This document shows, in pieces, positions 15,279-27,028 of a stretch of 32,000 nucleotides of DNA. The position numbers and the translations under genes were made by a program. The stretch's first letter is position 1, and each line of letters opens with the position of its first letter. This stretch comes from Geobacter metallireducens GS-15 (GTDB lineage Bacteria > Desulfobacterota > Desulfuromonadia > Geobacterales > Geobacteraceae), in contig NC_007517.1 of the NCBI RefSeq assembly GCF_000012925.1, positions 750,001 through 782,000 on the forward strand, read 5' to 3'. The notes under the pieces were generated by a model. The model was given only the letters and a program-made list of their open reading frames with translations. It did no database searches and was not told the origin of the DNA.

Positions 15279-15444
15279 TTTCTTATCACGAGCGACCGAG
15301 GGACTGGCCCTATGACGTCGCGGCAACCCCCCGCAAGGGGACGGTGCCAAATCCTGCGGAACGGCAACGTTCCGGGAGATAAGGAAGAGCGTTGCCGCCG
15401 TAACGGCGAAAAATCCTCTTCCGCACCCCGGAAGGGGATTTTTT
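15279..15444 (+). promoter_or_regulatory. SAM-I (S-box) riboswitch with a terminator expression platform
   Basis: The aptamer reads TTCTTATCACGAGCGACCGAGGGACTGGCCCTATGA...GGCAACC...GGTGCCAAATCCTGC...GGGAGATAAGGAA. The terminator is ATCCTCTTCCG / CGGAAGGGGAT plus TTTTTT (15412-15444). GGAAGAG (15383-15389) can pair with CTCTTCC (15415-15421) as an antiterminator. Confidence 0.93.
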
Positions 15445-15465: not shown

Positions 15466-16641
15466 ATGAACATCGCAACCCAGACAGCACAGATCGGACT
15501 TGAGTGGGACACCCGCACCGGCGCGGTGACGGTCCCCATCTACCAGACGGCCACCTTCCGGCACCCGGGGCTCGGCCAGAGCACCGGCTACGACTATACC
15601 CGCTCCGGCAACCCCACCCGGCAGGCCCTGGAGGAGGGGATCGCCCGCCTGGAGGGAGGCGCCCGGGGCTTCGCCTACGCCTCGGGCATGGCCGCCATCG
15701 CCAATCTCCTCCTCCTCTTCAAGAAGGGGGACCACTTGGTGGTGACCGAGGATCTCTACGGCGGTACCTGTCGTCTCTTCGACCAGATCTTCACCCAGTA
15801 CGAGCTCTCCTTCACCTACGTGGACACGAGCGACATCAAGGCAGTGCGTGCCGCCATCCGCCCAGAAACGAAGGCCCTCTTCGTGGAGTCCCTCACCAAC
15901 CCGCTCCTCAAGGTAGCCGACATCGCGGCCCTCTCGGCCCTCTGCCGGGAGCGGGGGCTTCTCCACATCGTGGACAACACCTTCCTCACCCCCTATCTCC
16001 TGCGCCCCTTCGACCATGGGGCCGACATCACCGTCTACAGCGCCACCAAGTACCTGGCCGGCCACAACGACACGGTCTCCGGCCTCGTGGCGGTGAAGGA
16101 CCCGCAGCTGGCCGAGCGGGTCTACTTCCTCCAGAACTCGGTGGGTGCGGTCCTGGGCCCCCAGGATTCCTGGCTCACCATCCGGGGGATGAAGACCCTT
16201 TCGGTGCGCCTCGACCGACAGCAGGAGAACGCAGGGCGGGTCGCCCAGTGGCTTTCGAATCACCCGCGGGTGCGGAAGGTCTACTACCCCGGCCTCTCCG
16301 GCCACCCCGGCCACCCCGGCCATGAACTCCTCGCCCGCCAGGCACGGGGCTTCGGTGCCATGATTGCCTTCGAGGTGGACGAGCATGCGCTCGTGGAGCG
16401 TTTGCTTCTGAAGACGGAAGTGATATCCTTCGCCGAGAGCCTCGGCGGGGTGGAAACCCTCATTACCTTCCCCCAGGTCCAGACCCATGCCGATATTCCG
16501 CCCGAACTGCGGCAGCGGCTTGGGATCAACGATGTGCTCCTGCGCCTCTCCGTGGGGATCGAGGACGCGGACGACCTGATCGACGACCTGGCCCAGGCGT
16601 TTGAAGGCGGGGACCAGGGATCGGGAACCGGGGACCGGTAA
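15466..16641 (+). CDS. Cys/Met-metabolism PLP enzyme (cystathionine gamma-synthase / beta-lyase family), paralog 1
   Basis: IPIYQTATF, the PLP-Lys motif YSATKYLAGHND and the family-typical C-terminus LRLSVGIEDADDLI are present. The extra tail GGDQGSGTGDR is encoded by a G-rich repeat. Confidence 0.9.
   Translation: MNIATQTAQIGLEWDTRTGAVTVPIYQTATFRHPGLGQSTGYDYTRSGNPTRQALEEGIARLEGGARGFAYASGMAAIANLLLLFKKGDHLVVTEDLYGGTCRLFDQIFTQYELSFTYVDTSDIKAVRAAIRPETKALFVESLTNPLLKVADIAALSALCRERGLLHIVDNTFLTPYLLRPFDHGADITVYSATKYLAGHNDTVSGLVAVKDPQLAERVYFLQNSVGAVLGPQDSWLTIRGMKTLSVRLDRQQENAGRVAQWLSNHPRVRKVYYPGLSGHPGHPGHELLARQARGFGAMIAFEVDEHALVERLLLKTEVISFAESLGGVETLITFPQVQTHADIPPELRQRLGINDVLLRLSVGIEDADDLIDDLAQAFEGGDQGSGTGDR
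16609..16633 (+). repeat. GGGAYC-type tandem array (four G-runs; fits the G3+N1-7 quadruplex pattern)
   Basis: The sequence is GGGGaccaGGGatcGGGaaccGGGG. A related array lies at 26104-26132. Confidence 0.7.
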
Positions 16642-18035: not shown

Positions 18036-20498
18036 ATGCGGATACGGACCACGTTGACGGCGGGTTGCTTCATTTTCGCCCTGCTCACCGCGCTGGTGGG
18101 ATACTTCGGCGGCCGTGCCATTACCAAAATCAGCGGAGAGTTCGACCGGGTGGCCGAGGAGGTTTTTCCTCTCCTCAGGACGCTGGAGGACCTCCGCTTT
18201 GCCGGTCTTCGGATCGTTTCCTCATCCGCCGAGCATACCCTTATCGTGAAACAGAGGGGCGATGCCGCGCGGCGAGGGGACTCGATTGTATTGGCCTCGT
18301 CAGGAATCGAGACCCTTGATGAGGCCCTCGCACGGCTGCAGTCGCTGAGTTCCTCCCTCGACCCCGAAGAGCGCCCTCTGGTGGCCGATGTGGATCGGGC
18401 CGGGCGAAGGCTTCTCGAGACGAGCAGGGTGCATCTGCGGCTGGTCCTGTCGGAAGCCCCGGAGGCTGAGCTTCGCAGCATTCGTGAGCGGTCACGGGGG
18501 GAGGAGGGGGCCTTCTTTGCAGCGGTCAGTCAGGCCTTTGCCCACAAAAGCGAGGAACTCGACGCCGCCAAGGCCGAGGTGCGGCAAGCGATCAGAACAG
18601 CACAGTTCACCATTGCCGTGGCCTCGCTGGTTGCCCTCGTTCTCGCCATCGGCGGCGGGTCCCTCGTCGCCGCTTCCATTTCCCGTCCCATAGCGCTTCT
18701 CCGCGACGGCGTCGAACAGGTAGGGCAGGGGCTTCTCGATACGCGGGTCGAGGTGACGGCCCGCAACGAGATCGGCACCCTCGCCGTCGCCTTCAATCGG
18801 ATGACAGGGGAGCTGCAATTCACCAAGAACGAGATCGTCACGGCGAGGAACTTCCTCGACAACGTGATCCAGTCCATGGCCGACGCCCTCGTCATCCTCT
18901 CCACCGACTGGACGATCATCAGCGTCAATCCGGCCCTCTGTACCATCCTGGGCTATGGCGAGAACGAACTCCTGGGGAGTCCCTTCGGCCGGATTGTCGC
19001 CGGCGGTGCGGAGGAGAGAGAACTCCTGCGTGAAATGGCCGAGCGGGGGCAGGTGCCGGAACGGGAACTCATCTACCTTGCCAGGGATGGTGCCGCCATC
19101 CCGGTTTCCGTTTCCGGAGCGGTCATGAGAAGCCCCACCGGCGAGGTGGTGGGGATTGTCTGCATCGCCCATGACATCAGCGAGCGGAAGCGGTCCGAGG
19201 AGGAGATCCGCCGGCTGGCTTTCTACGACCCCCTTACCCGGCTCCCCAACCGCAGCCTCTTTCAGGACAAACTCGCCCAGGCCATCCGGCGGAGCCGCAC
19301 CGACGGCGACATGATCGCCCTTCTCTTCCTCGACCTGGACCGGTTCAAGGACATCAACGACACACTGGGGCATGCCTACGGCGATCAGCTCCTGTTGGCC
19401 GTTGCCGCCCGGCTTGGCGACAATCTTCGTCCCACCGAGTTTCTTGCGCGGCTCGGCGGCGACGAGTTCGTGTTTCTGGTTACCGGCCTCCGCGACAAGA
19501 GGAGCGTCGGGAGCCTCGCCCATTCCATTCTCGAATTGCTCAACACCCCCTTTGAGATCGACGACAAGGAGTTGTTCATCTCGACGAGTATCGGTATTGC
19601 CCTCTCCCCCGGTGATGGCGATGACGGCGACACCCTCCTGACCCACGCCGACATGGCCCTCTACGCGGCCAAGGAGCAGGGGCGAAACGCATTCAGCTTC
19701 TTCTCCGAGGAATTGAACCGCGAGGCCCGGGAGCGCCGCCACCTTGAGGGGAGCCTCCACCGTGCCTTTGCCAACGACGAGTTCTTCCTGGAGTACCAGC
19801 CACAAATAGAGCTACGCAGCGGAAGGATCTTCAGTTTCGAGGCCCTGGTACGCTGGCAGCATCCCGAAGACGGGCTTATCTACCCGAATCGTTTCATCCC
19901 GGTGGCGGAGGAGACCGGACTCATCCGGCGGCTCGGCGAGTGGGTCCTGCGGACCGCCTGTCTCCAGTGCCGGCAGTGGCAGCAGCCGGGGCTTCCGCCG
20001 GTACGGGTGGCAGTCAACGTGTCGGGGCACCAGTTCAACCAGCCGGGGTTCATCGACATGGTCGACCGGGTCCTGGAGGAAACGGAGCTTGATCCGGAAC
20101 TCCTGGAACTGGAACTGACCGAAAGCTCCCTCATGGCCGGAGCCCAGGAATCCATCATGACCCTCATCGACCTGAAGGTCCGGGGGATCCACCTGGCCAT
20201 CGACGATTTCGGCACCGGCTACTCTTCCCTCAGCTACCTCAAGCACTTTCCCCTCGACCGCCTCAAGATCGACCGCTCCTTTGTCCGGGACATCGTCAAG
20301 GACCTGGACGACCGGGCCATTGTCGAGGCCATTATCGCCATGGCCCACAGCCTGGGGCTGCGGGTCCTGGCCGAGGGGGTCGAACATGAGGATGAACTTG
20401 AGCTGCTCAAGGAGCGGGGGTGCGACGAAGTGCAGGGGTTTTACTTCGCCCATCCCCTGCTGCCCGCGGCGGTCGAGGAGAACCTGAAAGTCCGCTGA
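18036..20498 (+). CDS. Membrane-anchored HAMP-PAS-GGDEF-EAL protein (c-di-GMP turnover)
   Basis: Two TM segments flank a ~170-aa helical periplasmic region. A HAMP domain (NEIGTLAVAFNRMT) and a PAS domain follow. RLGGDEFVF, FEALVRWQHP and DDFGTGYSSLSYL are all intact. Confidence 0.92.
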   Translation: MRIRTTLTAGCFIFALLTALVGYFGGRAITKISGEFDRVAEEVFPLLRTLEDLRFAGLRIVSSSAEHTLIVKQRGDAARRGDSIVLASSGIETLDEALARLQSLSSSLDPEERPLVADVDRAGRRLLETSRVHLRLVLSEAPEAELRSIRERSRGEEGAFFAAVSQAFAHKSEELDAAKAEVRQAIRTAQFTIAVASLVALVLAIGGGSLVAASISRPIALLRDGVEQVGQGLLDTRVEVTARNEIGTLAVAFNRMTGELQFTKNEIVTARNFLDNVIQSMADALVILSTDWTIISVNPALCTILGYGENELLGSPFGRIVAGGAEERELLREMAERGQVPERELIYLARDGAAIPVSVSGAVMRSPTGEVVGIVCIAHDISERKRSEEEIRRLAFYDPLTRLPNRSLFQDKLAQAIRRSRTDGDMIALLFLDLDRFKDINDTLGHAYGDQLLLAVAARLGDNLRPTEFLARLGGDEFVFLVTGLRDKRSVGSLAHSILELLNTPFEIDDKELFISTSIGIALSPGDGDDGDTLLTHADMALYAAKEQGRNAFSFFSEELNREARERRHLEGSLHRAFANDEFFLEYQPQIELRSGRIFSFEALVRWQHPEDGLIYPNRFIPVAEETGLIRRLGEWVLRTACLQCRQWQQPGLPPVRVAVNVSGHQFNQPGFIDMVDRVLEETELDPELLELELTESSLMAGAQESIMTLIDLKVRGIHLAIDDFGTGYSSLSYLKHFPLDRLKIDRSFVRDIVKDLDDRAIVEAIIAMAHSLGLRVLAEGVEHEDELELLKERGCDEVQGFYFAHPLLPAAVEENLKVR

Positions 20499-20674
20499 AA
20501 TCCCCCCGCTGTTCCCCCCATGGGGTTCGCCGTCTCCCGTTTCAGATTTCCCCGTAACGCTTTCGCAATTCTGCAAATAATACTGGATTTTTTTATGACG
20601 TATACATAGTATGTCCTTTGACTTCGCTAACTTTCAGGACAGGGGATCCCGTGCGCCGCTATTTTTTTGCCTTC

Positions 20675-22618
20675 ATGAACAACCTGAAGCTGCGCTGGAA
20701 GATGCTGGTGCTGGTGCTCCCCCTCGTGACGGTTCCGATCGTTCTGGTCGGTGGGGTCATCAGCTACATTTCAACCCAACAGGCGTACCGGGGGATCACC
20801 CAGACCAGCAAGGACGACCTGGCCCACATGGCCAGTTTCACCATCGACCTCCTCAATTCCCACTACCAGCAGTTCCAGGTATACAAGCAGGACAAGCAGC
20901 GGAGCACCAACCTGGAGCTGGCCACCCTCACCACCCTTGCCTACAACATGGTGGAGGCCCAGCATCGCCAGTACAAGAGCGGCAAGGTCGACCTCCGGAC
21001 CGCCAAGGAAGAGGCCCGCAAGGCCCTGAAACGGGTCAACGTGGGGACGACCGGCTACATCTACGCCATGTCCACCAAGGGGGATCTGGAGGTGCACATC
21101 GCCCGGGAGGGGGAGAACGTCTACGAGGAGAAGGACGAGAACGGCCGCCCCTTCATCCGGATCATGTGCGAGAACGCCCTGAAGTCCAAGCCGGGGGAGG
21201 TCCTCTACATCGTCTACCCCTGGCGCAACCCGGTGCTCGGCGACAAGTATCCCCGCAACAAGGTGGTTGCCTACCGTTATTTCCGGGAGTGGGACTGGAT
21301 CATCGCCTCGGGGGGCTACCTGGAGGAGACCTACGAAGACCTCGCCTTTGAGCGCCGCTCTTTCCAGGAGCTGAAGGATAAGATCAAGAGCAAGAAGGTG
21401 GGGGATACCGGCTACATTTTCTGCATGGACGACAAGGGGAACTTCACCGTTCACCCCGGCGGGGAGGGGAAGAATTTCCTCAACGCCGTGGATTCCAGCG
21501 GCCACAAGTTCATCAAGGAAATGGTGGAGAAGAAGCGGGGCTGGATCCGCTATCCCTGGCTCAACCCCGGGGAAAAGAACCCGCGGATGAAGATCGTCCG
21601 CTACGACTACTTCAAACCGTGGGGATGGATTGTGGCGGTCGGCTCCTACGAGGACGAGTTCTACGGGGAGGCCAACAAGATCCGGGGCCGGATCGCAGCC
21701 TCCATGACGCTGCTGACCATTGTGACGAGTGTTGTGGCCACCGGGCTGGTCTTCCTGGCGGCCAAGATTTTCACTCAGCCCATCATGCACATGATCGACG
21801 TGATCCGTAGGGTGAAGAAAGGGCGGCTCGACGAGCAGATGGAGGTGGATGCGGGGGATGAGCTGGGCGAGATGGCGTCGGCCTTTAACCTGATGACCGC
21901 CATGATCCGCCAGAACAAGGAGATGGAGGCAAGCCTCGCCCAGCAGGGGAAGATGGCGTCCCTCGGTGTCCTCTCCTCGGGGGTGGCCCACGAGATCAAC
22001 AACCCACTCGGGGTTATCCTTGGCTACGCCTCCTACATCGAGGGGAAAACCAGCGAGGATGATCCCAACTACAGGTTCATCCACGAGATCAAGCGGGAGA
22101 GCAAGCGGTGCAAGAAGATCGTCCAGGATCTCCTCTCCTATGCCCGCACCCCCAAGCCGGCCCTGGAGTGGACCGACGTGAACGACCTGCTGGGGCAGAT
22201 CGTCGATTTCGCCGCCAATCACACCGACATGCACCACGTGACCGTCGTGAAGGATTTCTCTCCCGAATTGCCCCGGGTCATGGTCGACGGCGACCAGATC
22301 AGGCAGGTGGCCATCAACCTGATCCTGAACGCCGGAGCCGCCATGTCCGGGGAAGGGACCCTGACGGTGAAATCGTTCCTGGACGGCGAGGGGTACGTAA
22401 ACATCGTCTTCTGTGACAACGGGGCGGGAATACCCGCCGAGGACATCGAAAAAATTTTCGAGCCCTTCTTCACCACCAAGGCCAAGGGGACGGGGCTCGG
22501 CCTTGCCATCACGAAGCAGATCATCGAGATGCACCATGGCAAGATCAGCATCCTGAGCGAAGTGGGGAAGGGGTCCGACGTGATTGTGAAGCTGCCGGTG
22601 GACCGGGACGAGCTGTGA
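20675..22618 (+). CDS. Sensor histidine kinase with two tandem periplasmic Cache-like domains plus HAMP
   Basis: An internal duplication is visible (TGYIYAMSTKGDLEVH...YPWRNP...WDWIIASGGY versus TGYIFCMDDKGNFTVH...YPWLNP...WGWIVAVGSY). H-box VAHEINNPLGVI, DNGAGI and GTGLGLAI are present. The start is uncertain: ATG 20675, GTG 20651 or TTG 20618. Confidence 0.88.
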   Translation: MNNLKLRWKMLVLVLPLVTVPIVLVGGVISYISTQQAYRGITQTSKDDLAHMASFTIDLLNSHYQQFQVYKQDKQRSTNLELATLTTLAYNMVEAQHRQYKSGKVDLRTAKEEARKALKRVNVGTTGYIYAMSTKGDLEVHIAREGENVYEEKDENGRPFIRIMCENALKSKPGEVLYIVYPWRNPVLGDKYPRNKVVAYRYFREWDWIIASGGYLEETYEDLAFERRSFQELKDKIKSKKVGDTGYIFCMDDKGNFTVHPGGEGKNFLNAVDSSGHKFIKEMVEKKRGWIRYPWLNPGEKNPRMKIVRYDYFKPWGWIVAVGSYEDEFYGEANKIRGRIAASMTLLTIVTSVVATGLVFLAAKIFTQPIMHMIDVIRRVKKGRLDEQMEVDAGDELGEMASAFNLMTAMIRQNKEMEASLAQQGKMASLGVLSSGVAHEINNPLGVILGYASYIEGKTSEDDPNYRFIHEIKRESKRCKKIVQDLLSYARTPKPALEWTDVNDLLGQIVDFAANHTDMHHVTVVKDFSPELPRVMVDGDQIRQVAINLILNAGAAMSGEGTLTVKSFLDGEGYVNIVFCDNGAGIPAEDIEKIFEPFFTTKAKGTGLGLAITKQIIEMHHGKISILSEVGKGSDVIVKLPVDRDEL

Positions 22619-22656
22619 CGGCCGGTAGGAACGAATTTTTTTCACAGGGGTAGAGA

Positions 22657-24039
22657 GTGTCCGAAAACAAGCGCATCATGCTCATCGACAACGAGGAGGG
22701 GCTCTGCCGGATGATGGAGGCGGTGCTTCTGGATAGCGGCTATGGCGTGAAGGGGTACACCCGCTCCTTCGAGGCGGTGGAGGAGTTTCGGCCCGGCGAC
22801 TGGGATCTGGTGGTCTCGGACATCAAGATGCCGGGGATGGATGGTCTGGAGGTGCTCCAGCGGATCAAGGCCAAGGAGCCGGCCATTCCGGTCATCATGA
22901 TCACCGCCTACGCCACGGTGGAGATGTCGATCCAGGCCCTGCGCCGGGGCGCCTACGACATGCTGACCAAGCCCTTCGAGCCCGAGGAGCTCCTCTACCG
23001 GGTGAAAAACGCCCTCAAGCACACCGAGCTTCTGGAAGAGAACCGGGAGCTGCGCGAGAAGCTGGTGGGTAAGTTCCGCTTCGACAACATAATCGGCGCC
23101 TCGGACGGGCTCAAGGGGGTTTTGGAGAAGGTGGAGAAAATCGCCATCCGGGACACGTCGGTGCTCATCACCGGCGAGTCGGGGACCGGCAAGGAGCTCA
23201 TCGCCCAGGCGATCCACTACAACTCGGTCCGCAAGGAAAAGAAGTTCGTTGCCATCAACTGCGGTGCCCTGCCGGAGACGCTCCTGGAGAGCGAGCTCTT
23301 CGGCTACCGCAAGGGGGCCTTCACTGGCGCCAAGGAAAACCGCCAGGGACTTCTGGAGGCGGCCGACGGGGGAACCCTGTTTCTGGACGAGGTGGGGAAC
23401 CTCCCCATGAACGTGCAGAAGACGCTTCTCCGTTTCCTCCAGGAGCAGGAGTTTCTCCGCATTGGCGACACCACCCCCACCAAGGTGGACGTGCGGATCA
23501 TCTCGGCCACCAACGCCGACCTGCGGGAAGGGGTCAAGAGCGGCGCCTTCCGGGAGGACCTCTACTACCGCCTCAACGTGGTGAACCTCCATCTCCCGCC
23601 GCTGCGGGAGCGCAAGGGGGATATCCCGCTCCTGGCGGCCCATTTCATTGCCCAGCAGAACAAGAAATTCGACACCGCAATCAAGGGGTTGTCACCCGAC
23701 TCCCTGGAAGCGGCCGTTGGCTATGCCTGGCCCGGCAACATCCGCCAGCTCAGGAACGTGATCGAGGCCTGCACAGCCATGGAGAGCGGCGAATACATTA
23801 CGCTGTCGGTCCTCTCCCAGTTCATCGAGCTTCCCGAGCCACGGGACGAGCCGGCCGTGGAGGCGGAAGGGGAGGAGGGTGCCTACGCCCAGGCCCTTTC
23901 CCGCTTCGAGATGGACTACATCCGGGGACTGTTGCGGAAAAACCGTGGCAATGTGGAGGCAGCCGCCCGTGAGGCGGGGATGAACATGGCCACCATCTAC
24001 CGGAAAATGAAGAAGTACAACCTGCGCCGCGAAGAATAG
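22657..24039 (+). CDS. Sigma-54-dependent response regulator (NtrC family: receiver, AAA+, Fis-type HTH)
   Basis: The receiver segment VVSDIKMPGMDG, Walker A GESGTGKE, the sigma-54 contact loop GAFTGA and a C-terminal HTH (NVEAAAREAGMNMATIYRKMKKY) are present. The start is GTG 22657. Confidence 0.93.
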   Translation: MSENKRIMLIDNEEGLCRMMEAVLLDSGYGVKGYTRSFEAVEEFRPGDWDLVVSDIKMPGMDGLEVLQRIKAKEPAIPVIMITAYATVEMSIQALRRGAYDMLTKPFEPEELLYRVKNALKHTELLEENRELREKLVGKFRFDNIIGASDGLKGVLEKVEKIAIRDTSVLITGESGTGKELIAQAIHYNSVRKEKKFVAINCGALPETLLESELFGYRKGAFTGAKENRQGLLEAADGGTLFLDEVGNLPMNVQKTLLRFLQEQEFLRIGDTTPTKVDVRIISATNADLREGVKSGAFREDLYYRLNVVNLHLPPLRERKGDIPLLAAHFIAQQNKKFDTAIKGLSPDSLEAAVGYAWPGNIRQLRNVIEACTAMESGEYITLSVLSQFIELPEPRDEPAVEAEGEEGAYAQALSRFEMDYIRGLLRKNRGNVEAAAREAGMNMATIYRKMKKYNLRREE

Positions 24040-24059
24040 CTCCAGCTCCCTCTCTCATC

Positions 24060-24075
24060 TTTGCATTTTTGCAAA
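24060..24075. promoter_or_regulatory. Palindrome TTTGCA-N4-TGCAAA, candidate enhancer (UAS) site 1
   Basis: A perfect 6-bp inverted repeat lies ~270 bp upstream of the -24 element at 24334. Confidence 0.45.
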
Positions 24076-24088
24076 ACCCCGAAGAATC

Positions 24089-24110
24089 CCCCTCGCACCC
24101 CTGCGAGGGG
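24089..24110 (+). terminator. GC hairpin after the regulator gene (possible terminator, no U-tract)
   Basis: The stem is CCCCTCGCA cccc TGCGAGGGG (9 bp). It is followed by AAGGGCC, so intrinsic termination is doubtful. Confidence 0.35.
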
Positions 24111-24208
24111 AAGGGCCGCAATGTTGCAAATGACAGCAATGTCAATGTGTTATGCTCTGTTGACGGTCTCCGTAGCCGCCTCTCTCCGACTCGCCGCCAC
24201 TTCTCTCC

Positions 24209-24222
24209 TTGCATGCCTGCAA
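24209..24222. promoter_or_regulatory. Palindrome TTGCA-N4-TGCAA, candidate enhancer (UAS) site 2
   Basis: The sequence is cTTGCAtgccTGCAAa, ~120 bp upstream of the -24 element. An AT-rich tract (24260-24330) lies between it and the promoter. Confidence 0.45.
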
Positions 24223-24332
24223 AAACACCGTTAGATATCTCTCCTCGCTTTTGGTTCACAGCGAACTGAATACTGTTTTTAAGTGTTTGTAATTACTGTG
24301 ATATTTGGTTTGTAAAAATATTTTCACCGATT

Positions 24333-24348
24333 TGGTATACAGGTTGCT
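24333..24348 (+). promoter_or_regulatory. Sigma-54 (-24/-12) promoter of the four-gene cassette
   Basis: The sequence is TGGTATacaggTTGCT. GG (24334-24335) and GC (24346-24347) are at the canonical offset. It lies downstream of an enhancer-binding-protein gene. Confidence 0.65.
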
Positions 24349-24473
24349 CTTACCAAAATCAGTTACTCCTTCGAAAAGCATGGGTCGGAGCCGGGGATGG
24401 TGACGACCAGATGAACCGGCACTCCTCCCATGCGCGGCAGAAAAACCGAAACGGTTTAGTGATAGAGGTTCCC

Positions 24474-24665
24474 ATGAAGGACGGAATTGTCTGCCCCTTC
24501 TACGGCAAAAGCGATGACATCTGCGACGTGGGGTGCGGTTACATCTCACCCCACGACGTCAACATGATCATCAAGTTCTGCAGCTGCCGGTACCGCGAGT
24601 GCATGAAGTACCAGGAGCTGTCGGAACGGTTTCCCCACGAGGTACTTACACCGGTAAAGTGTTGA
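24474..24665 (+). CDS. Small Cys-rich protein (63 aa, 7 Cys), function unknown
   Basis: ATG 24474 follows AGAGG. The sequence is MKDGIVCPFYGKSDDICDVGCGYISPHDVNMIIKFCSCRYRECMKYQELSERFPHEVLTPVKC. The longer track start at 24411 has no RBS. Confidence 0.6.
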   Translation: MKDGIVCPFYGKSDDICDVGCGYISPHDVNMIIKFCSCRYRECMKYQELSERFPHEVLTPVKC

Positions 24666-24684
24666 GCAATAAAAGGAGGAAGTC

Positions 24685-24807
24685 ATGCTGTACAACCTGA
24701 GTCTGCACCTTGATGGACCGTATATCCTGTATGCCCTGACGATTGTGGCGGCCTTAACGGTTATTTCTTTGGTAAAGGAGAAGAGAGATGAGCGAAAGAG
24801 AGCTTGA
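24685..24807 (+). CDS. Mini-protein (40 aa) with one TM helix and a basic tail; absent from the ORF track
   Basis: A strong AAAAGGAGGA RBS lies 4 nt upstream of ATG 24685. My manual translation is MLYNLSLHLDGPYILYALTIVAALTVISLVKEKRDERKRA, stop at 24805-24807. It overlaps the next gene's start by 20 nt. Confidence 0.5.
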   Translation: MLYNLSLHLDGPYILYALTIVAALTVISLVKEKRDERKRA

Positions 24808-25039
24808 ACTGCTGGCTAGAATTGAGCAACTGGAGCGGCACACCTGGCGCAACAGCGCCATCCTCCGTGCGGTAGCCATGGTGGCCGGCACTGCCATGAT
24901 AGGTCTCTTCATCGCCTCGGGGGTTGTGGGGGGCGGACACGGGAGCCACTGGAGCGGACCGGCCTGGAACACCATGTGGCTCTACGGCCTGTTCGCGGCG
25001 AATGCGGTGTCCATGTTCTGGACAACCCATAAGAACTAG
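24788..25039 (+). CDS. Small membrane protein (83 aa): N-terminal heptad-like helix plus two TM segments
   Basis: An AAGGAG RBS is present. The sequence begins MSERELELLARIEQLERH, followed by the hydrophobic segments AVAMVAGTAMIGLFIASGVV and MWLYGLFAANAVSMFW. Confidence 0.6.
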   Translation: MSERELELLARIEQLERHTWRNSAILRAVAMVAGTAMIGLFIASGVVGGGHGSHWSGPAWNTMWLYGLFAANAVSMFWTTHKN

Positions 25040-25049
25040 GAGAATAGCC

Positions 25050-26099
25050 ATGCCAATGTCAATCAAGAACGCAATCCTGCTCTTTGTTGTGGTGGCCCTT
25101 TGCGCCGCATTCAGCATGAGGATATTCCAGGGACTCGACGAGATGATGGGCGACCAGTACTGGGTCGTCGACACCACCCAGGGAGACCACGGGTGGTACG
25201 CCATGGGGCTCCTCCCCCATGTGAAGCTGATGGCCAAGGATGTGGTCAAGGCCGTAAACACCGACGCCGACAAGAGCAACAACTACGAGATCTATGCCCA
25301 GGCAGGGGATTTTGCCGGCAACTCGGTTTACGGGATCTGCTACGGCATCCCCCTCATCATGTACCTGATCTGGTTCGCCTTCATCCTTGGCTTCCCTGAC
25401 CGGGTTGATCCGTATCTGTTGCCGCGTAAGATATTCACCCTTGCCGTCATCACCTGCTGCTCGATTGTCGTGAACCTCTTCCTGATGCGTATTACCGCCG
25501 ACTTCGCCACCGATCCCATGTCGCGCATCGCCAACGTGGCAGGCAACCACGCATCGCTTCTGTTCCATAATGCCGGCATCTGGTTCGCGATTCTCTTCTC
25601 GGCCCTGGGAACCCATGCCCATTCCGCCCAGGAAACGAGCGCTCCCGACAGCCGCCAGTGGCAGACCCAGGCCAACGAGAAGTTCTCCTGGATGTTCATT
25701 CTCCTTGGCGCCGTGACCGTGCTTGAGCTCTTCCTGGTGAAGGGCAAGCTTGCCCTCCCCGACGCGGCAGTCGACTACTCGGTCTGGCTCATCTGGGTGG
25801 TGATCTTCATGCGGATGTTCGGCTTCTCTCCCAAGTACTGGTTCAAGCGTGGCCGCGGCCTCGCCATCATGTTCGTCGGCACGGCCCTGACCCTCGTGGC
25901 CTTCTACTTCCTGGAGCGGTTCACCGGAAACCTCGGCGCCGGCTTTGCCTCCCCGATTCTGGCCAAGGCCCTTGGCGTGGAGAACCAGAACATCGGCCTC
26001 TCCCTTATGATCTCCATCTACCTGATCTTCTGGATGGAATTCTCCGCGGCCATCCGGATGAACGGTCCGGCCAAGAGTGCGGTGGAACAAAAGCATTAA
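25050..26099 (+). CDS. Polytopic membrane protein (349 aa, ~8 TM, with a ~80-aa loop after TM1), function unknown
   Basis: ATG 25050 follows TAGGAGA. The track's upstream extension overlaps the previous gene. I recognise no transporter or enzyme signature. Confidence 0.7.
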   Translation: MPMSIKNAILLFVVVALCAAFSMRIFQGLDEMMGDQYWVVDTTQGDHGWYAMGLLPHVKLMAKDVVKAVNTDADKSNNYEIYAQAGDFAGNSVYGICYGIPLIMYLIWFAFILGFPDRVDPYLLPRKIFTLAVITCCSIVVNLFLMRITADFATDPMSRIANVAGNHASLLFHNAGIWFAILFSALGTHAHSAQETSAPDSRQWQTQANEKFSWMFILLGAVTVLELFLVKGKLALPDAAVDYSVWLIWVVIFMRMFGFSPKYWFKRGRGLAIMFVGTALTLVAFYFLERFTGNLGAGFASPILAKALGVENQNIGLSLMISIYLIFWMEFSAAIRMNGPAKSAVEQKH

Positions 26100-26103
26100 G
26101 GCA

Positions 26104-26132
26104 GGGACCCGGGACCGGGGATCGGGACCGGG
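26104..26132 (+). repeat. GGGAYC-type tandem array (five G-runs) directly after the cassette's stop codon
   Basis: The sequence is GGGacccGGGaccGGGGatcGGGaccGGG. It is related to the array at 16609-16633. Confidence 0.7.
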
Positions 26133-26148
26133 AAAAACCTGAAAAACA

Positions 26149-26180
26149 GAAGAGGCGGCGGGATTTCCCGTCGCCTCTTC
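26149..26180. terminator. Strong hairpin between convergent genes (bidirectional terminator)
   Basis: The stem is GAAGAGGCG(26149-26157) / CGCCTCTTC(26172-26180) with an inner CGGG/CCCG stem. A T-run follows on the minus strand (the complement of 26133-26148). The T-run on the plus strand is weak. Confidence 0.75.
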
Positions 26181-26203: not shown

Positions 26204-26860
26204 TTATGCGCGGTGTTCCACGACCACCTGCAGCCCCTCCAGCTCTTCTTCCAGAGATGCAATGAGGCGCTCCACCATCTCCCGGTAGTCGCCGGGAAGC
26301 TCCTCTACCCCACGCAGGGCGGTGTCGAGGCGTCGCGCCGCGCCGAGGGCCGCTTTCAGGGGGACCGACGGGTCGCTCACGGGCTCCTCGCGGGTCTTGG
26401 CCACTTCCTTGAACTGTTTTAGGACGGTGGGATGGCTCCGTTCCTGTTCCACCACGCTCTTGCGCAGATCCGCGTACTCCTCGTCGGAGAACCCCTTCTC
26501 CTCCCGGGCCTGGCGCAGGAGGTCGATGGAGCGGTAGTCGGGGAAGGGGCGGGGCTCTTCGCGGCGCGCCATGAGCTCCGGCTCGTTCTTCTCCATGAAG
26601 CGGTACGCGAGAGTCAGCTTCTGGGCCGTCTCCTTCTTGATCCTGATCTCCTTGGTGCAGTAATCCTCGAAGCTTCCGTAGCCCCATTCCTTGTAGAGGT
26701 CCCGTGAGCTGACGGCCAGGAGCCGGTCCCCCAGTTCCACCCATGATGACTTGAAGCGCTTGGCGGTCTCCAGGACCTGGAAGCGTTCCGACGTGGGGTC
26801 CAGCTCCCCCATGATGCGTTCGATGAAGCGCTCGCCCGATGATTTGGGGATGTCGGTCAT
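26204..26860 (-). CDS. Hypothetical all-helical charged protein (218 aa), possibly HTH-containing
   Basis: ATG 26860 has an AAGGAG RBS. The segment WGYGSFEDYCTKEIRIKKETAQKLTLAYRF resembles ParB/DUF3102-type HTH regions. That resemblance is from memory and has not been searched. Confidence 0.6.
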   Translation of the reverse strand: MTDIPKSSGERFIERIMGELDPTSERFQVLETAKRFKSSWVELGDRLLAVSSRDLYKEWGYGSFEDYCTKEIRIKKETAQKLTLAYRFMEKNEPELMARREEPRPFPDYRSIDLLRQAREEKGFSDEEYADLRKSVVEQERSHPTVLKQFKEVAKTREEPVSDPSVPLKAALGAARRLDTALRGVEELPGDYREMVERLIASLEEELEGLQVVVEHRA

Positions 26861-27028
26861 GATCGGTTCTCCTTGTTCGGTTCTTTTTCGAGTGATACCA
26901 CAGAACGCCTCCCGCACCAACGGCAGAATGAATCGGCGCCATGTTTTGCCTTGGCTGGGGATAACGGTTCGGGGTACAATTCACACGTTTGCTATCGATT
27001 TCTAGTGTAACGAGGGAGTTCCCATCCG

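What the first reader, a model, noticed from the sequence alone, without database searches (positions are those of the whole stretch)
20561..26180. Tandem-Cache kinase and NtrC-type activator driving a sigma-54 cassette of four proteins I cannot assign
The kinase and enhancer-binding protein are followed by a 434-bp regulatory region. That region has two TTGCA-N4-TGCAA palindromes, an AT-rich tract and a correctly spaced -24/-12 promoter. Four tightly packed genes follow, with gaps of 19 and 10 nt and one 20-nt overlap. They encode a 63-aa 7-Cys soluble protein, a 40-aa single-TM peptide, an 83-aa helix-plus-2TM protein and a 349-aa ~8-TM protein. A strong hairpin closes the unit. None of the four shows a signature I can tie to a known transporter, enzyme, pilin, cytochrome (no CxxCH) or Psp component. 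The layout suggests a ligand-sensing, sigma-54-gated envelope module of unknown function.
Basis: partly seen in the sequence, partly recalled or inferred. Interest (0 to 1): 0.8.

Follow-up and report, generated by a model that had tools for sequence, protein, structure and literature searches.

The report
Orphan sigma-54 membrane operon of Geobacter
A sensor kinase built to detect small organic acids, together with its partner activator, appears to switch on a tightly packed operon for a membrane protein complex; that complex is almost unchanged across the Geobacter family yet matches no known protein family or solved structure, so it is a real, well-defined module whose function is still open.

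Summary
The window is Geobacter metallireducens GS-15. A tandem-sCache_2 histidine kinase and an NtrC-type activator are followed by two TTGCA-N4-TGCAA sites, an AT-rich tract, a -24/-12 promoter and four packed genes (63, 40, 83 and 349 aa) closed by a strong hairpin.

Across 80 Geobacteraceae species, the promoter was found in 80 of 81 loci (window included). The palindromes were found in 80 of 80 loci that could be scored. The cassette is syntenic, but the kinase/activator pair lies within about 6 kb in only 33 of 80 loci. The same palindrome also precedes the kinase gene.

None of the four products matches Pfam, NCBIfam, PADLOC, PHROGs or PDB sequences. Models of the 349-aa and 63-aa proteins have no Foldseek match. 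The core is the 83-aa plus 349-aa pair. It recurs without the other two genes in a Firmicutes MAG and in contigs with archaeal-type neighbours.

Both Cache modules keep all carboxylate-contacting residues of acetate/propionate/pyruvate receptors.

A new finding is a structured, covarying 5' leader hairpin with an invariant loop and no Rfam match.

Leang et al. (2009) had already predicted the G. sulfurreducens promoter.

Best reading: a carboxylate-induced, sigma-54-gated orphan membrane (probably transport) complex.

The parts
20563..20576 (+). Single activator-type site (TCGCAATTCTGCAA) about 50 nt upstream of the kinase ORF; probable autoregulatory operator
   Evidence: one mismatch to TTGCA-N4-TGCAA. 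A site is present in the region upstream of the kinase gene (about -23 to -162 from the ORF start) in 22 of 29 loci, with no -24/-12 promoter there.
20618..22618 (+). Sensor histidine kinase: TM, two sCache_2 modules (dCache_2), TM, HAMP, HisKA, HATPase_c. The likely start is the ATG at 20675.
   Evidence: Pfam. The closest solved structures are carboxylate-binding sCache_2 chemoreceptor domains. Both modules keep all seven PscD ligand-contacting positions, four of them the H-bonding residues. These positions are invariant in 31 sequences (the window plus 30 orthologues).
22657..24039 (+). NtrC-family enhancer-binding response regulator (receiver, AAA+ sigma-54 interaction domain with GAFTGA, Fis-type HTH)
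   Evidence: The best NCBIfam models (AtoC, NtrC, GlrR) all score below their curated cut-offs.
24061..24074 (+). Distal upstream activator site TTGCATTTTTGCAA
   Evidence: Distal sites at about -215 to -285 from the -24 element are conserved across loci.
24089..24110 (+). GC-rich hairpin after the activator gene (terminator-like end of the kinase/activator operon)
   Evidence: -18.4 kcal/mol, z = -2.2.
24209..24222 (+). Proximal upstream activator site TTGCATGCCTGCAA, 124 nt upstream of the -24 element
   Evidence: A site lies at -88 to -124 in most loci.
24260..24331 (+). AT-rich tract between the activator sites and the promoter (possible bend or IHF region)
   Evidence: GC 22-30%. No IHF consensus match lies inside it.
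24332..24348 (+). Sigma-54 (-24/-12) promoter TTGGTATACAGGTTGCT
   Evidence: The sequence is identical in G. sulfurreducens. TGGYRY-N5-NTGC is found in 80 of 81 loci. Leang 2009 predicted it as Promoter 69, PromScan score 83.
24349..24473 (+). Structured 5' leader. It contains the invariant GTTACTCCT (24362-24370), a long hairpin (24378-24433) with the invariant apical GGTGACGACC (24399-24408), a small hairpin followed by TTT (24443-24457), and the RBS AGAGG (24464-24468).
   Evidence: No Rfam match. The element is also present in outgroup locus L086, which lacks the 63-aa and 40-aa genes.
24474..24665 (+). 63-aa soluble Cys-rich protein (orthologue of GSU0964). Cys7, Cys17, Cys21, Cys36 and Cys43 are conserved; a probable metal (Zn or Fe-S) site.
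   Evidence: Found only in Geobacteraceae-type sequences. The model is low-confidence with no fold match. No PDB or Pfam hit.
24685..24807 (+). 40-aa single-TM peptide with a basic C-terminus; its gene overlaps the next gene by 20 nt
   Evidence: An ORF with the same 20-nt overlap geometry is kept in 56 of 80 loci at about 50% identity. It is absent in Citrifermentans and Geomonas.
24788..25039 (+). 83-aa protein (orthologue of GSU0966): an N-terminal helix plus two TM helices, with the motif AWNTMWLYGLxAANA
   Evidence: Median identity across 78 loci is 90%. Homologues directly precede every distant relative of the 349-aa gene. Listed among the 61 best-conserved Geobacter proteins (PMC2825233).
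25050..26099 (+). 349-aa, 8-TM membrane protein (orthologue of GSU0967) with a roughly 55-aa periplasmic beta domain
   Evidence: There are only 21 clusters at 50% identity among 1.84 billion proteins. No Foldseek hit in PDB or BFVD.
26149..26180 (+). Strong terminator hairpin closing the cassette; it could also serve the convergent gene 26204-26920
   Evidence: -31.3 kcal/mol, z = -6.3.

Best explanation
This is a two-component, sigma-54-dependent regulatory unit that controls an orphan inner-membrane complex.

Proposed sequence of events:
1. The periplasmic tandem sCache_2 sensor of the kinase binds a small (C2/C3) carboxylate such as acetate, glycolate, propionate, pyruvate or lactate.
2. 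The kinase phosphorylates the NtrC-type activator.
3. The activator binds the TTGCA-N4-TGCAA sites. Typically one site lies about 90-125 nt and two lie about 215-285 nt upstream of the -24 element.
4. Across an AT-rich bend, the activator opens the sigma-54 promoter.
5. A single site in front of the kinase gene provides autoregulation.

The transcript starts with a conserved structured leader. This leader probably adds a post-transcriptional control step.

The products assemble in the membrane. The 8-TM 349-aa protein and its obligate 2-TM 83-aa partner form the ancient core. In Geobacteraceae the core is joined by a cytoplasmic Cys-rich metal-binding 63-aa protein and, in most lineages, a 40-aa single-TM peptide.

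The most likely role of the complex is uptake or handling of the carboxylate that the kinase senses, following the same logic as DctB/DctD-dctA.

What is shown: gene structure, promoter and operator conservation, synteny, the orphan status of the proteins, leader covariation, and conservation of the sensor pocket.

What is inferred: that this activator binds these sites, that the ligand is a carboxylate, that the four products form one complex, and that the complex transports something.

My confidence is about 0.85 for the regulatory architecture and about 0.3 for 'carboxylate transporter'. The figure given is for the whole statement.
For: Regulation:
- Promoter in 80 of 81 loci.
- 191 palindromes in 80 of 80 loci against 0.08 per 300 nt background, at conserved distances.
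- The same palindrome upstream of the kinase gene in 22 of 29 loci.
- Kinase/activator pair next to the cassette in 33 of 80 loci, in two different arrangements.
- GAFTGA and full NtrC-family domains in the activator.
- Independent PromScan prediction for GSU0964-0967.

Ligand:
- The only solved relatives of the sensor are 2QHK/4EXO (pyruvate), 5G4Y PscD (propionate; it also binds acetate, glycolate and pyruvate) and 4K08 (acetate).
- The PscD contacts Y90, W92, H103, F126, Y143, W145 and K156 map to Y147, Y149, H160, I180, Y200, W202 and K215 in module 1.
- They map to Y266, F268, H279, I299, Y312, W314 and K325 in module 2.
- The four H-bonding residues are identical in both modules. All positions are invariant in 31 sequences, except position 268, which is F or Y.

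Complex:
- The gaps and the overlap indicate translational coupling.
- An 83-aa-type gene directly precedes the 349-aa-type gene in every distant relative examined.

Membrane or transport character:
- 8 TM helices with conserved polar residues inside helices: N142, R147, D151, H167, N174, K211 and D242.
- A small 2-TM partner encoded upstream of a polytopic protein is a recurring layout for carboxylate permeases. This rests on established knowledge (YjcH-ActP) and is an analogy only.
Against: - No sequence or fold similarity to any transporter. The best Foldseek result against PDB is E = 0.7 with TM <= 0.22.
- A Cys-rich cytoplasmic subunit is unusual for a secondary transporter.
- 24 of 80 loci have no kinase/activator pair within about 6 kb.
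- The link between the activator and the palindrome rests on co-occurrence only.
- The G. sulfurreducens operon appears only in the promoter-prediction table. It is absent from the table of genes that were also changed in the RpoN-overexpression transcriptome.
- The only expression datum found is a 4.4-fold increase of GSU0966 in silica-immobilised cells.
- 80-90% identity across a whole family is high for a substrate-inducible permease.
- Distant homologues have varied neighbours with no carboxylate theme.
Confidence: 0.4

Rival explanations
1. The cassette encodes a membrane-bound enzyme or redox module rather than a transporter. In this reading the Cys-rich 63-aa protein carries an Fe-S or Zn centre and docks on the 349-aa/83-aa membrane core, for example to oxidise, reduce or modify a membrane or periplasmic substrate linked to carboxylate metabolism.
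For: Five conserved cysteines in a soluble protein encoded first in the operon. Many invariant polar or charged residues inside the helices and a conserved periplasmic GDxxG loop. Conservation is extreme, comparable to core energy-metabolism proteins. One distant relative sits beside formate dehydrogenase and FlpD genes, but in convergent orientation.
Against: There is no CxxCH, no conserved His pairs for haem (only H167 is nearly invariant across the whole family), and no match to any Fe-S or oxidoreductase family. The Cys-rich protein is absent from the non-Geobacteraceae relatives that still keep the membrane pair.
Confidence: 0.15
2. The cassette is an envelope-stress or membrane-homeostasis module in the manner of the phage-shock (Psp) system: small membrane proteins induced through sigma-54 to protect membrane integrity, for instance against weak-acid stress.
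For: Sigma-54 control. Two small membrane proteins, one with an N-terminal amphipathic or coiled helix. GSU0966 rose 4.4-fold in silica-encapsulated (stressed) cells. A comparative survey titled to the effect that sigma-54 is a central controller of the bacterial exterior turned up (PMC3162934); I did not read it.
Against: No PspA, PspB or PspC domains. The activator has a receiver domain and a cognate ligand-binding kinase, unlike PspF. The large 8-TM protein has no Psp counterpart. The sensor pocket is of the nutrient-carboxylate type.
Confidence: 0.12
3. The membrane complex is a co-sensor or accessory of the signalling pathway itself. In this reading it is a transporter-like protein that reports flux back to the kinase, as DctA does for DctB or BceAB does for BceS, rather than the physiological output.
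For: Cassette and kinase are genetically linked in two different arrangements. There are precedents for transporter-kinase co-sensing, which is established knowledge.
Against: The membrane pair exists without any such kinase in the Firmicutes MAG and in the contigs with archaeal-type neighbours. 24 of 80 Geobacteraceae loci are unlinked. The cassette is more conserved than its regulators: 90% and 81% median identity for the 83-aa and 349-aa proteins against 72% and 79% for the kinase and activator.
Confidence: 0.08
4. The 63-aa Cys-rich product is a precursor peptide (RiPP-like or a secreted signal), and the membrane proteins process or export it.
For: A small Cys-rich ORF comes first in the operon, with a strongly conserved N-terminal 50 residues and a variable C-terminal tail.
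Against: No modifying enzyme (radical SAM, cyclase, protease or ABC exporter) is present in the cassette or conserved nearby. There is no signal or leader-type cleavage motif. The Foldseek hit to the ChlB/ChlA (radical SAM protein / RiPP precursor) complex entry has E = 8.7 and is therefore meaningless.
Confidence: 0.03

Closest known systems
DctB-DctD / dctA C4-dicarboxylate system of rhizobia (established knowledge)
   Same: Both have a kinase with a periplasmic double PAS/Cache sensor for carboxylates and an NtrC-family response regulator. In both, the pair is encoded next to a sigma-54-dependent gene preceded by tandem upstream activator sites, and the output is a membrane protein.
   Different: Here the sensor is a tandem sCache_2 with C2/C3-type pockets. 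The target is a three- or four-gene cassette with no similarity to DctA (DAACS) or to any permease family. There is an extra Cys-rich soluble protein and a structured leader RNA. Linkage to the regulators is seen in only 33 of 80 loci.
AtoS-AtoC / atoDAEB of E. coli
   Same: These are the best-scoring NCBIfam models for both regulators. The system is a sigma-54-dependent response to a short-chain carboxylate, with an inverted-repeat activator site.
   Different: Scores are far below the equivalog cut-offs (239 against 646 bits for the kinase; 447 against 714 for the activator). From memory, AtoS has no periplasmic Cache tandem. The target genes are unrelated.
sCache_2 carboxylate chemoreceptor domains PscD, McpP, Adeh_3718 (PMC5062169)
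   Same: All four H-bonding residues and the aromatic sandwich of the ligand pocket are kept in both modules of the kinase.
   Different: Here there are two such modules in tandem, and they feed a histidine kinase instead of a chemoreceptor. Binding has not been tested.
Small-subunit plus permease pairs such as YjcH-ActP (established knowledge)
   Same: A roughly 80-100-aa 2-TM protein gene lies immediately upstream of, and is co-conserved with, a polytopic membrane protein gene.
   Different: No sequence or fold relationship. This is an analogy of layout only.
PspF / pspABCDE phage-shock system
   Same: A sigma-54-dependent operon that includes small membrane proteins.
   Different: No Psp domains. 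The activator here is a receiver-containing response regulator with a cognate ligand-binding kinase. The large 8-TM protein has no counterpart.

Membership tests
NtrC-family bacterial enhancer-binding protein (response-regulator type) | Receiver domain, AAA+ sigma-54 interaction domain with the GAFTGA loop, and a C-terminal Fis-type HTH | tested here: met
   Pfam Response_reg 7e-28, Sigma54_activat 2e-72, HTH_8 3e-8. GAFTGA is present in the translation.
Sigma-54-dependent promoter | GG and GC dinucleotides 10 nt apart (TGGCAC-N5-TTGCW) upstream of the regulated gene, conserved in orthologous loci | tested here: met
   TGGTAT-N5-TTGCT at 24333-24348. Found in 80 of 81 loci. Predicted independently in G. 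sulfurreducens.
Sigma-54-dependent promoter | Transcription depends on RpoN and on the activator | not testable with these tools
   No transcript data were available. The operon is not in the RpoN-overexpression transcriptome table of PMC2725144.
Activator regulon of this kinase/activator pair | The activator binds the TTGCA-N4-TGCAA sites | tested here: inconclusive
   Support is by co-occurrence only. Sites are upstream of the cassette in 80 of 80 loci and upstream of the kinase gene in 22 of 29. The pair is adjacent in 33 of 80 loci. Binding itself was not tested.
sCache_2 C2/C3-carboxylate sensors (PscD/McpP type) | Pocket residues Tyr90, His103, Tyr143 and Lys156 plus the aromatic sandwich | tested here: met
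   Both modules keep them, and they are invariant in 31 sequences.
sCache_2 C2/C3-carboxylate sensors (PscD/McpP type) | Measured binding of acetate, propionate, pyruvate or glycolate | not testable with these tools
   Needs thermal-shift or ITC measurements on the purified sensor domain.
AtoS/AtoC, ZraS/ZraR, NtrB/NtrC equivalogs | Score above the curated NCBIfam equivalog cut-off | tested here: not met
   AtoS 239 against 646; AtoC 447 against 714; ZraR 370 against 760; NtrC 423 against 559.
Any described protein family, for the four cassette products | Significant profile match in Pfam-A, NCBIfam, PADLOC or PHROGs, or to PDB sequences | tested here: not met
   Only noise was found; the best is MSL2_3 at E = 0.011, below its cut-off.
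Known membrane-protein folds, for the 349-aa protein | Foldseek match of the predicted structure to a solved or viral predicted structure | tested here: not met
   Model pLDDT 75.8, pTM 0.77. PDB best E = 0.7, TM <= 0.22. BFVD best E = 0.7. AlphaFold DB was not available.
Phage-shock (Psp) system | PspA, PspB or PspC proteins and a receiver-less PspF activator | tested here: not met
   No Psp Pfam or NCBIfam hit for the products. The activator has a receiver domain and scores below the pspF cut-off (275 against 444).
Rfam RNA families, for the 5' leader | Covariance-model match | tested here: not met
   Nothing in 24000-24700 up to E = 10 apart from noise. The only gathering-score hit in the window is a SAM riboswitch elsewhere.

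The most novel reading that the evidence does not exclude
The 83-aa plus 349-aa pair founds a previously undescribed family and fold of membrane transporter, plausibly for acetate or another C2/C3 carboxylate. It is shared patchily by Geobacteraceae, a Firmicutes lineage and organisms whose contigs carry archaeal-type genes. In Geobacteraceae it is equipped with a metal-binding subunit and placed under three layers of control: a carboxylate-sensing kinase, sigma-54, and a new cis-regulatory leader RNA with an invariant GGUGACGAYC loop.
Probability: 0.25. Interest if true: 0.8.

Novelty: new variant of a known kind. Interest (0 to 1): 0.6.

Why it matters
Geobacter species drive iron and uranium reduction and current production, and acetate is their main fuel.

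The 83-aa protein (GSU0966) was already listed among the 61 best-conserved proteins of six Geobacter genomes, alongside ribosomal proteins and ATP synthase, yet it has never been given a function.

This work gives a concrete, testable frame: a defined operon, a defined operator and promoter, a predicted ligand class for the sensor, and a defined leader RNA element.

If the complex proves to be a transporter or enzyme of a new fold, it would add a new membrane protein family and perhaps a missing step in carboxylate handling by anaerobes. The leader hairpin would be a new cis-regulatory RNA motif.

If instead the cassette proves dispensable, it is still a clean model of a sigma-54 enhancer with three phased sites.

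Tried and rejected
Profile and fold searches:
- Pfam, NCBIfam, PADLOC and PHROGs scans of all four products, and of every member of the alignments of the 349-aa, 63-aa and 83-aa families, gave nothing.
- PDB sequence profiles gave nothing.
- Foldseek against PDB and BFVD gave nothing.
- tblastn against plasmids gave no match.

Internal repeat in the 349-aa protein: there is only a weak hint that TM2-3 resembles TM6-7 (hhalign P = 0.009, probability 4%). I do not rely on it.

Conserved neighbours: apart from the kinase and activator, no neighbouring gene is present in more than about 19 of 89 loci. A Cytidylate_kin2 gene seen next to two loci was judged coincidental.

Taxonomy of the distant relatives: cluster look-ups returned no organism names. 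'Archaeal-type' rests on the neighbouring Hjc and EMC3/DUF106 genes.

Leader RNA:
- The idea that GTTACTCCT is an anti-Shine-Dalgarno element is not supported. On average only 0.57 of 5 nt are expected to pair with the RBS.
- From memory, ANTAR substrates have paired hairpins with hexaloops carrying A at position 1 and G at position 4. The loop here does not fit. This is recall, not a test.
The covariance model found strong hits in only four further loci, none of which is among the loci that one search listed as lacking cassette genes.

IHF consensus: no match inside the AT-rich tract.

This link was therefore neither supported nor excluded.

Literature: no paper in the library mentions GSU0962-0967 in its main text, apart from two tables.

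Full report
**Source and gene structure.** The four cassette proteins are identical to G. metallireducens GS-15 entries ABB30945-ABB30947 and WP_004514095, so the window is from that genome. On the + strand lie:
- a 666-codon kinase ORF (20618-22618; probable ATG at 20675);
- a 460-aa activator (22657-24039);
- a 434-nt intergenic region;
- genes of 63 aa (24474-24665), 40 aa (24685-24807), 83 aa (24788-25039) and 349 aa (25050-26099).

A 14-bp GC-rich hairpin (26149-26180; -31.3 kcal/mol, z = -6.3) ends the unit. A weaker hairpin (24089-24110) follows the activator gene.

**Regulators.** Pfam gives dCache_2 / two sCache_2 modules, HAMP, HisKA and HATPase_c for the kinase. It gives Response_reg, Sigma54_activat and HTH_8 for the activator. 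GAFTGA is present in the activator. NCBIfam ranks AtoS/AtoC, ZraS/ZraR and NtrC highest, but all fall far below their equivalog cut-offs. These are therefore NtrC-family proteins of no named subtype.

**Promoter and operators.** TTGGTATACAGGTTGCT (24332-24348) has the right -24/-12 spacing. In a single window such a match is not above chance, so I tested it by comparison.

A scan of one genome per species returned 80 Geobacteraceae loci carrying the 349-aa gene.
- A TGGYRY-N5-NTGC element lies upstream of the 63-aa gene in 80 of 81 loci, the window included.
- TTGCA-N4-TGCAA (at most one mismatch) occurs within 300 nt upstream of that element in 80 of 80 loci that could be scored. That is 191 sites against a background of 0.08 per 300 nt.
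- The sites show a recurrent layout: one site about 88-124 nt upstream and usually two, spaced about 30 nt apart, at about 215-285 nt upstream.

The window has perfect sites at 24061-24074 and 24209-24222. The tract 24260-24340 is 22-30% GC, and no IHF consensus lies in it.

Leang et al. (2009) had already listed the identical G. sulfurreducens sequence as predicted RpoN 'Promoter 69' for an operon made of GSU0964, an unnamed 40-codon ORF, GSU0966 and GSU0967 (PMC2725144, Additional file 4). That operon is not in their table of genes that were also changed in the transcriptome.

**Link to the kinase/activator pair.** Across the 80 loci:

| Arrangement | Loci |
|---|---|
| Pair directly upstream, same strand | 28 |
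| Pair convergent downstream | 5 |
| No pair within about 6 kb on either side | 24 |
| No pair upstream, downstream truncated | 8 |
| Upstream truncated, cannot tell | 15 |

Adjacency is therefore common but not universal. The palindromes are present whether or not the pair is adjacent. One copy also lies upstream of the kinase gene in 22 of 29 loci, with no sigma-54 promoter there. In the window this copy is at 20563-20576, about 50 nt before the ORF. This is what is expected if the palindrome is this activator's operator and the pair is autoregulated. Binding itself was not tested.

**What the kinase probably senses.** The only solved relatives of the periplasmic region are single sCache_2 chemoreceptor domains:
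- 2QHK/4EXO, crystallised with pyruvate;
- 5G4Y/5G4Z PscD, crystallised with propionate; it also binds acetate, glycolate and pyruvate;
- 4K08 Adeh_3718, crystallised with acetate.

Brewster et al. (PMC5062169) define the PscD pocket as Tyr90, His103, Tyr143 and Lys156 (hydrogen bonds), Trp92 and Trp145 (aromatic sandwich) and Phe126 (back wall). The mapping onto the kinase is:

| PscD | Y90 | W92 | H103 | F126 | Y143 | W145 | K156 |
|---|---|---|---|---|---|---|---|
| Module 1 | Y147 | Y149 | H160 | I180 | Y200 | W202 | K215 |
| Module 2 | Y266 | F268 | H279 | I299 | Y312 | W314 | K325 |

All positions are invariant in 31 sequences (the window plus 30 orthologues), except position 268, which is F or Y. 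I therefore infer a C2/C3-carboxylate ligand. This rests on homology of the pocket, not on measurement.

**The four products.** None has a Pfam, NCBIfam, PADLOC or PHROGs match. This also holds when every member of the family alignments is scanned at E <= 10. PDB sequence profiles find nothing.

- *The 349-aa protein* is 77-97% identical across Geobacter, Geomonas, Citrifermentans, Oryzomonas, Geotalea, Trichlorobacter and Geoanaerobacter. An exhaustive HMMER search of 1.84 billion cluster representatives found only 21 clusters, five of them full-length distant relatives at 32-56% identity. The AlphaFold model (pLDDT 75.8, pTM 0.77) has 8 TM helices and a small beta domain between helices 1 and 2. 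It has no Foldseek match in PDB (best E = 0.7, TM <= 0.22) or in BFVD.
- *The 83-aa protein* has 90% median identity across 78 loci. It is GSU0966, which Butler et al. listed among the 61 best-conserved proteins of six Geobacter genomes (PMC2825233, Table 3).
- *The 63-aa protein* is confined to Geobacteraceae-type sequences. It keeps Cys7, Cys17, Cys21, Cys36 and Cys43. Its model is poor (pLDDT 64.6) and has no fold match.
- *The 40-aa ORF* keeps its length and its 20-nt overlap in 56 of 80 loci at about 50% identity. It is missing in Citrifermentans and Geomonas.

**Core versus accessories.** Every distant relative of the 349-aa gene is directly preceded by a 76-95-codon gene homologous to the 83-aa protein, with the shared motif WNTMxLYGLLAANA. 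These loci have no 63-aa or 40-aa gene. They are:
- two contigs with archaeal-type neighbours (Hjc resolvase, EMC3/DUF106);
- a Firmicutes MAG and related contigs, where the pair lies next to an MFS gene;
- contigs beside a convergent formate dehydrogenase gene;
- a 56%-identity lineage that keeps the activator, palindromes, promoter and leader.

The ancient unit is therefore a two-subunit membrane module. The Cys-rich protein and the 40-aa peptide are additions found only in Geobacteraceae.

In 34 loci (window included) the distance from the -12 element to the start codon is 99-126 nt. These leaders share an invariant GTTACTCCT near the predicted 5' end (window 24362-24370). They also share a long hairpin (24378-24433) whose apical GGTGACGAYC (24399-24408) is invariant while the stems change.

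- On an unfitted MAFFT alignment of 12 leaders, a 20-pair structure is 92.7% paired. It has compensatory changes at 13 pairs and a covariation score of 0.48, against 0.21 in shuffles (0 of 500 shuffles reach it) and at most 0.15 when the partners are slid.
- On a model-fitted alignment of 22 distinct leaders, 16 of 20 pairs show compensatory changes.
- Caveats: the structure was read from one of these sequences, and the second alignment is fitted to the model.
- The covariance model hits once per locus, always in front of the cassette, in 1.0 Mb of related loci.
- The motif is also present in the 56%-identity outgroup, where it precedes the 83-aa gene directly.
- Rfam has no match.
- Lineages with TGGCAC-type promoters have 12-68-nt leaders without the motif.
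- I could not show what the element does. The anti-SD idea failed. GUUACU is complementary to GGUGAC, so an alternative pairing is possible but cannot be tested by covariation.

**Interpretation.** The regulatory architecture is well supported by comparison: kinase to activator to TTGCA-N4-TGCAA enhancer to sigma-54 promoter, plus a leader element. I put it at about 0.85.

The function of the products is not established. The closest analogue in logic is DctB/DctD-dctA: a carboxylate-sensing Cache kinase and an NtrC-type regulator turning on a membrane protein for that carboxylate. The small 2-TM partner upstream of a polytopic protein recalls YjcH-ActP. I therefore favour a carboxylate uptake or handling complex at about 0.3. 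Rivals are a metal-centre membrane enzyme, a Psp-like stress module, a co-sensor, and a peptide-export system.

Arguments against the favoured reading:
- there is no transporter-like fold match;
- a Cys-rich subunit is odd for a transporter;
- linkage to the regulators is incomplete;
- there are no informative expression data. GSU0966 rose 4.4-fold in silica-immobilised cells, and that is all I found.

**Novelty.** The kind of system is ordinary: an operon dependent on an enhancer-binding protein. The G. sulfurreducens promoter was predicted in 2009. New here are:
- the comparative proof of the promoter and enhancer;
- the assignment of a probable operator and probable autoregulation;
- the predicted ligand class;
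- the delimitation of a two-protein core shared with a Firmicutes lineage and with organisms whose contigs carry archaeal-type genes;
- the absence of any family or fold match;
- the leader RNA motif.

Noticed in passing
window 24349-24473 (hairpin 24378-24433; loop 24399-24408; GTTACTCCT 24362-24370); also L086 601-659: Conserved structured 5' leader in front of the cassette, with covarying stems, an invariant GGUGACGAYC apex and an invariant GUUACUCCU near the 5' end. It has no Rfam family. It is found only at this operon, and it is also kept in a 56%-identity outgroup that lacks the 63-aa gene.
   Followed up: yes
window 20563-20576: One activator-type palindrome (TCGCAATTCTGCAA) about 50 nt upstream of the kinase ORF. 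A site is present upstream of the kinase gene in 22 of 29 loci, with no sigma-54 promoter nearby. It is probably an autoregulatory operator.
   Followed up: partly
window 15280-15385 (+): SAM riboswitch (RF00162, 97 bits) upstream of a Cys/Met-metabolism PLP enzyme gene at 15466-16641. This is ordinary.
   Followed up: partly
L084, L085, L087, L090-L094: Distant homologues of the 83-aa plus 349-aa pair occur as a bare two-gene unit in contigs with archaeal-type neighbours (Hjc, EMC3/DUF106), in a Firmicutes MAG next to an MFS gene, and in unnamed metagenome contigs, two of them (L090, L091) beside a convergent formate dehydrogenase gene. The patchy distribution suggests horizontal transfer.
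   Followed up: partly
L001 7634-7756 (G. sulfurreducens PCA): The 40-codon ORF is present and 90% identical, but it is not among the called genes of the PCA record. Leang 2009 lists it as an unnamed operon member.
   Followed up: yes
P0108 and P0248 (Geoanaerobacter pelophilus, both recorded with a longest contig of 4,176,986 bases): Two members of the 349-aa family (349 and 345 aa) in one genome, which suggests a paralogue. The context look-up for P0248 failed.
   Followed up: partly
window 26204-26920 (-): Convergent 238-aa gene directly after the cassette terminator, with no Pfam match. It is not conserved next to the cassette in G. sulfurreducens.
   Followed up: no
window 18036-20498 (+): The upstream neighbour is a HAMP-PAS-GGDEF-EAL protein. 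In G. sulfurreducens this position is occupied by transposase genes instead, so it is not part of the unit.
   Followed up: partly
window 25050-26099, residues 105-130 versus 246-270 of the product: Weak similarity between the TM2-loop-TM3 and TM6-loop-TM7 segments (both contain IW...GF(S)P). This hints at an internal 4+4 TM duplication (hhalign P = 0.009, probability 4%).
   Followed up: partly
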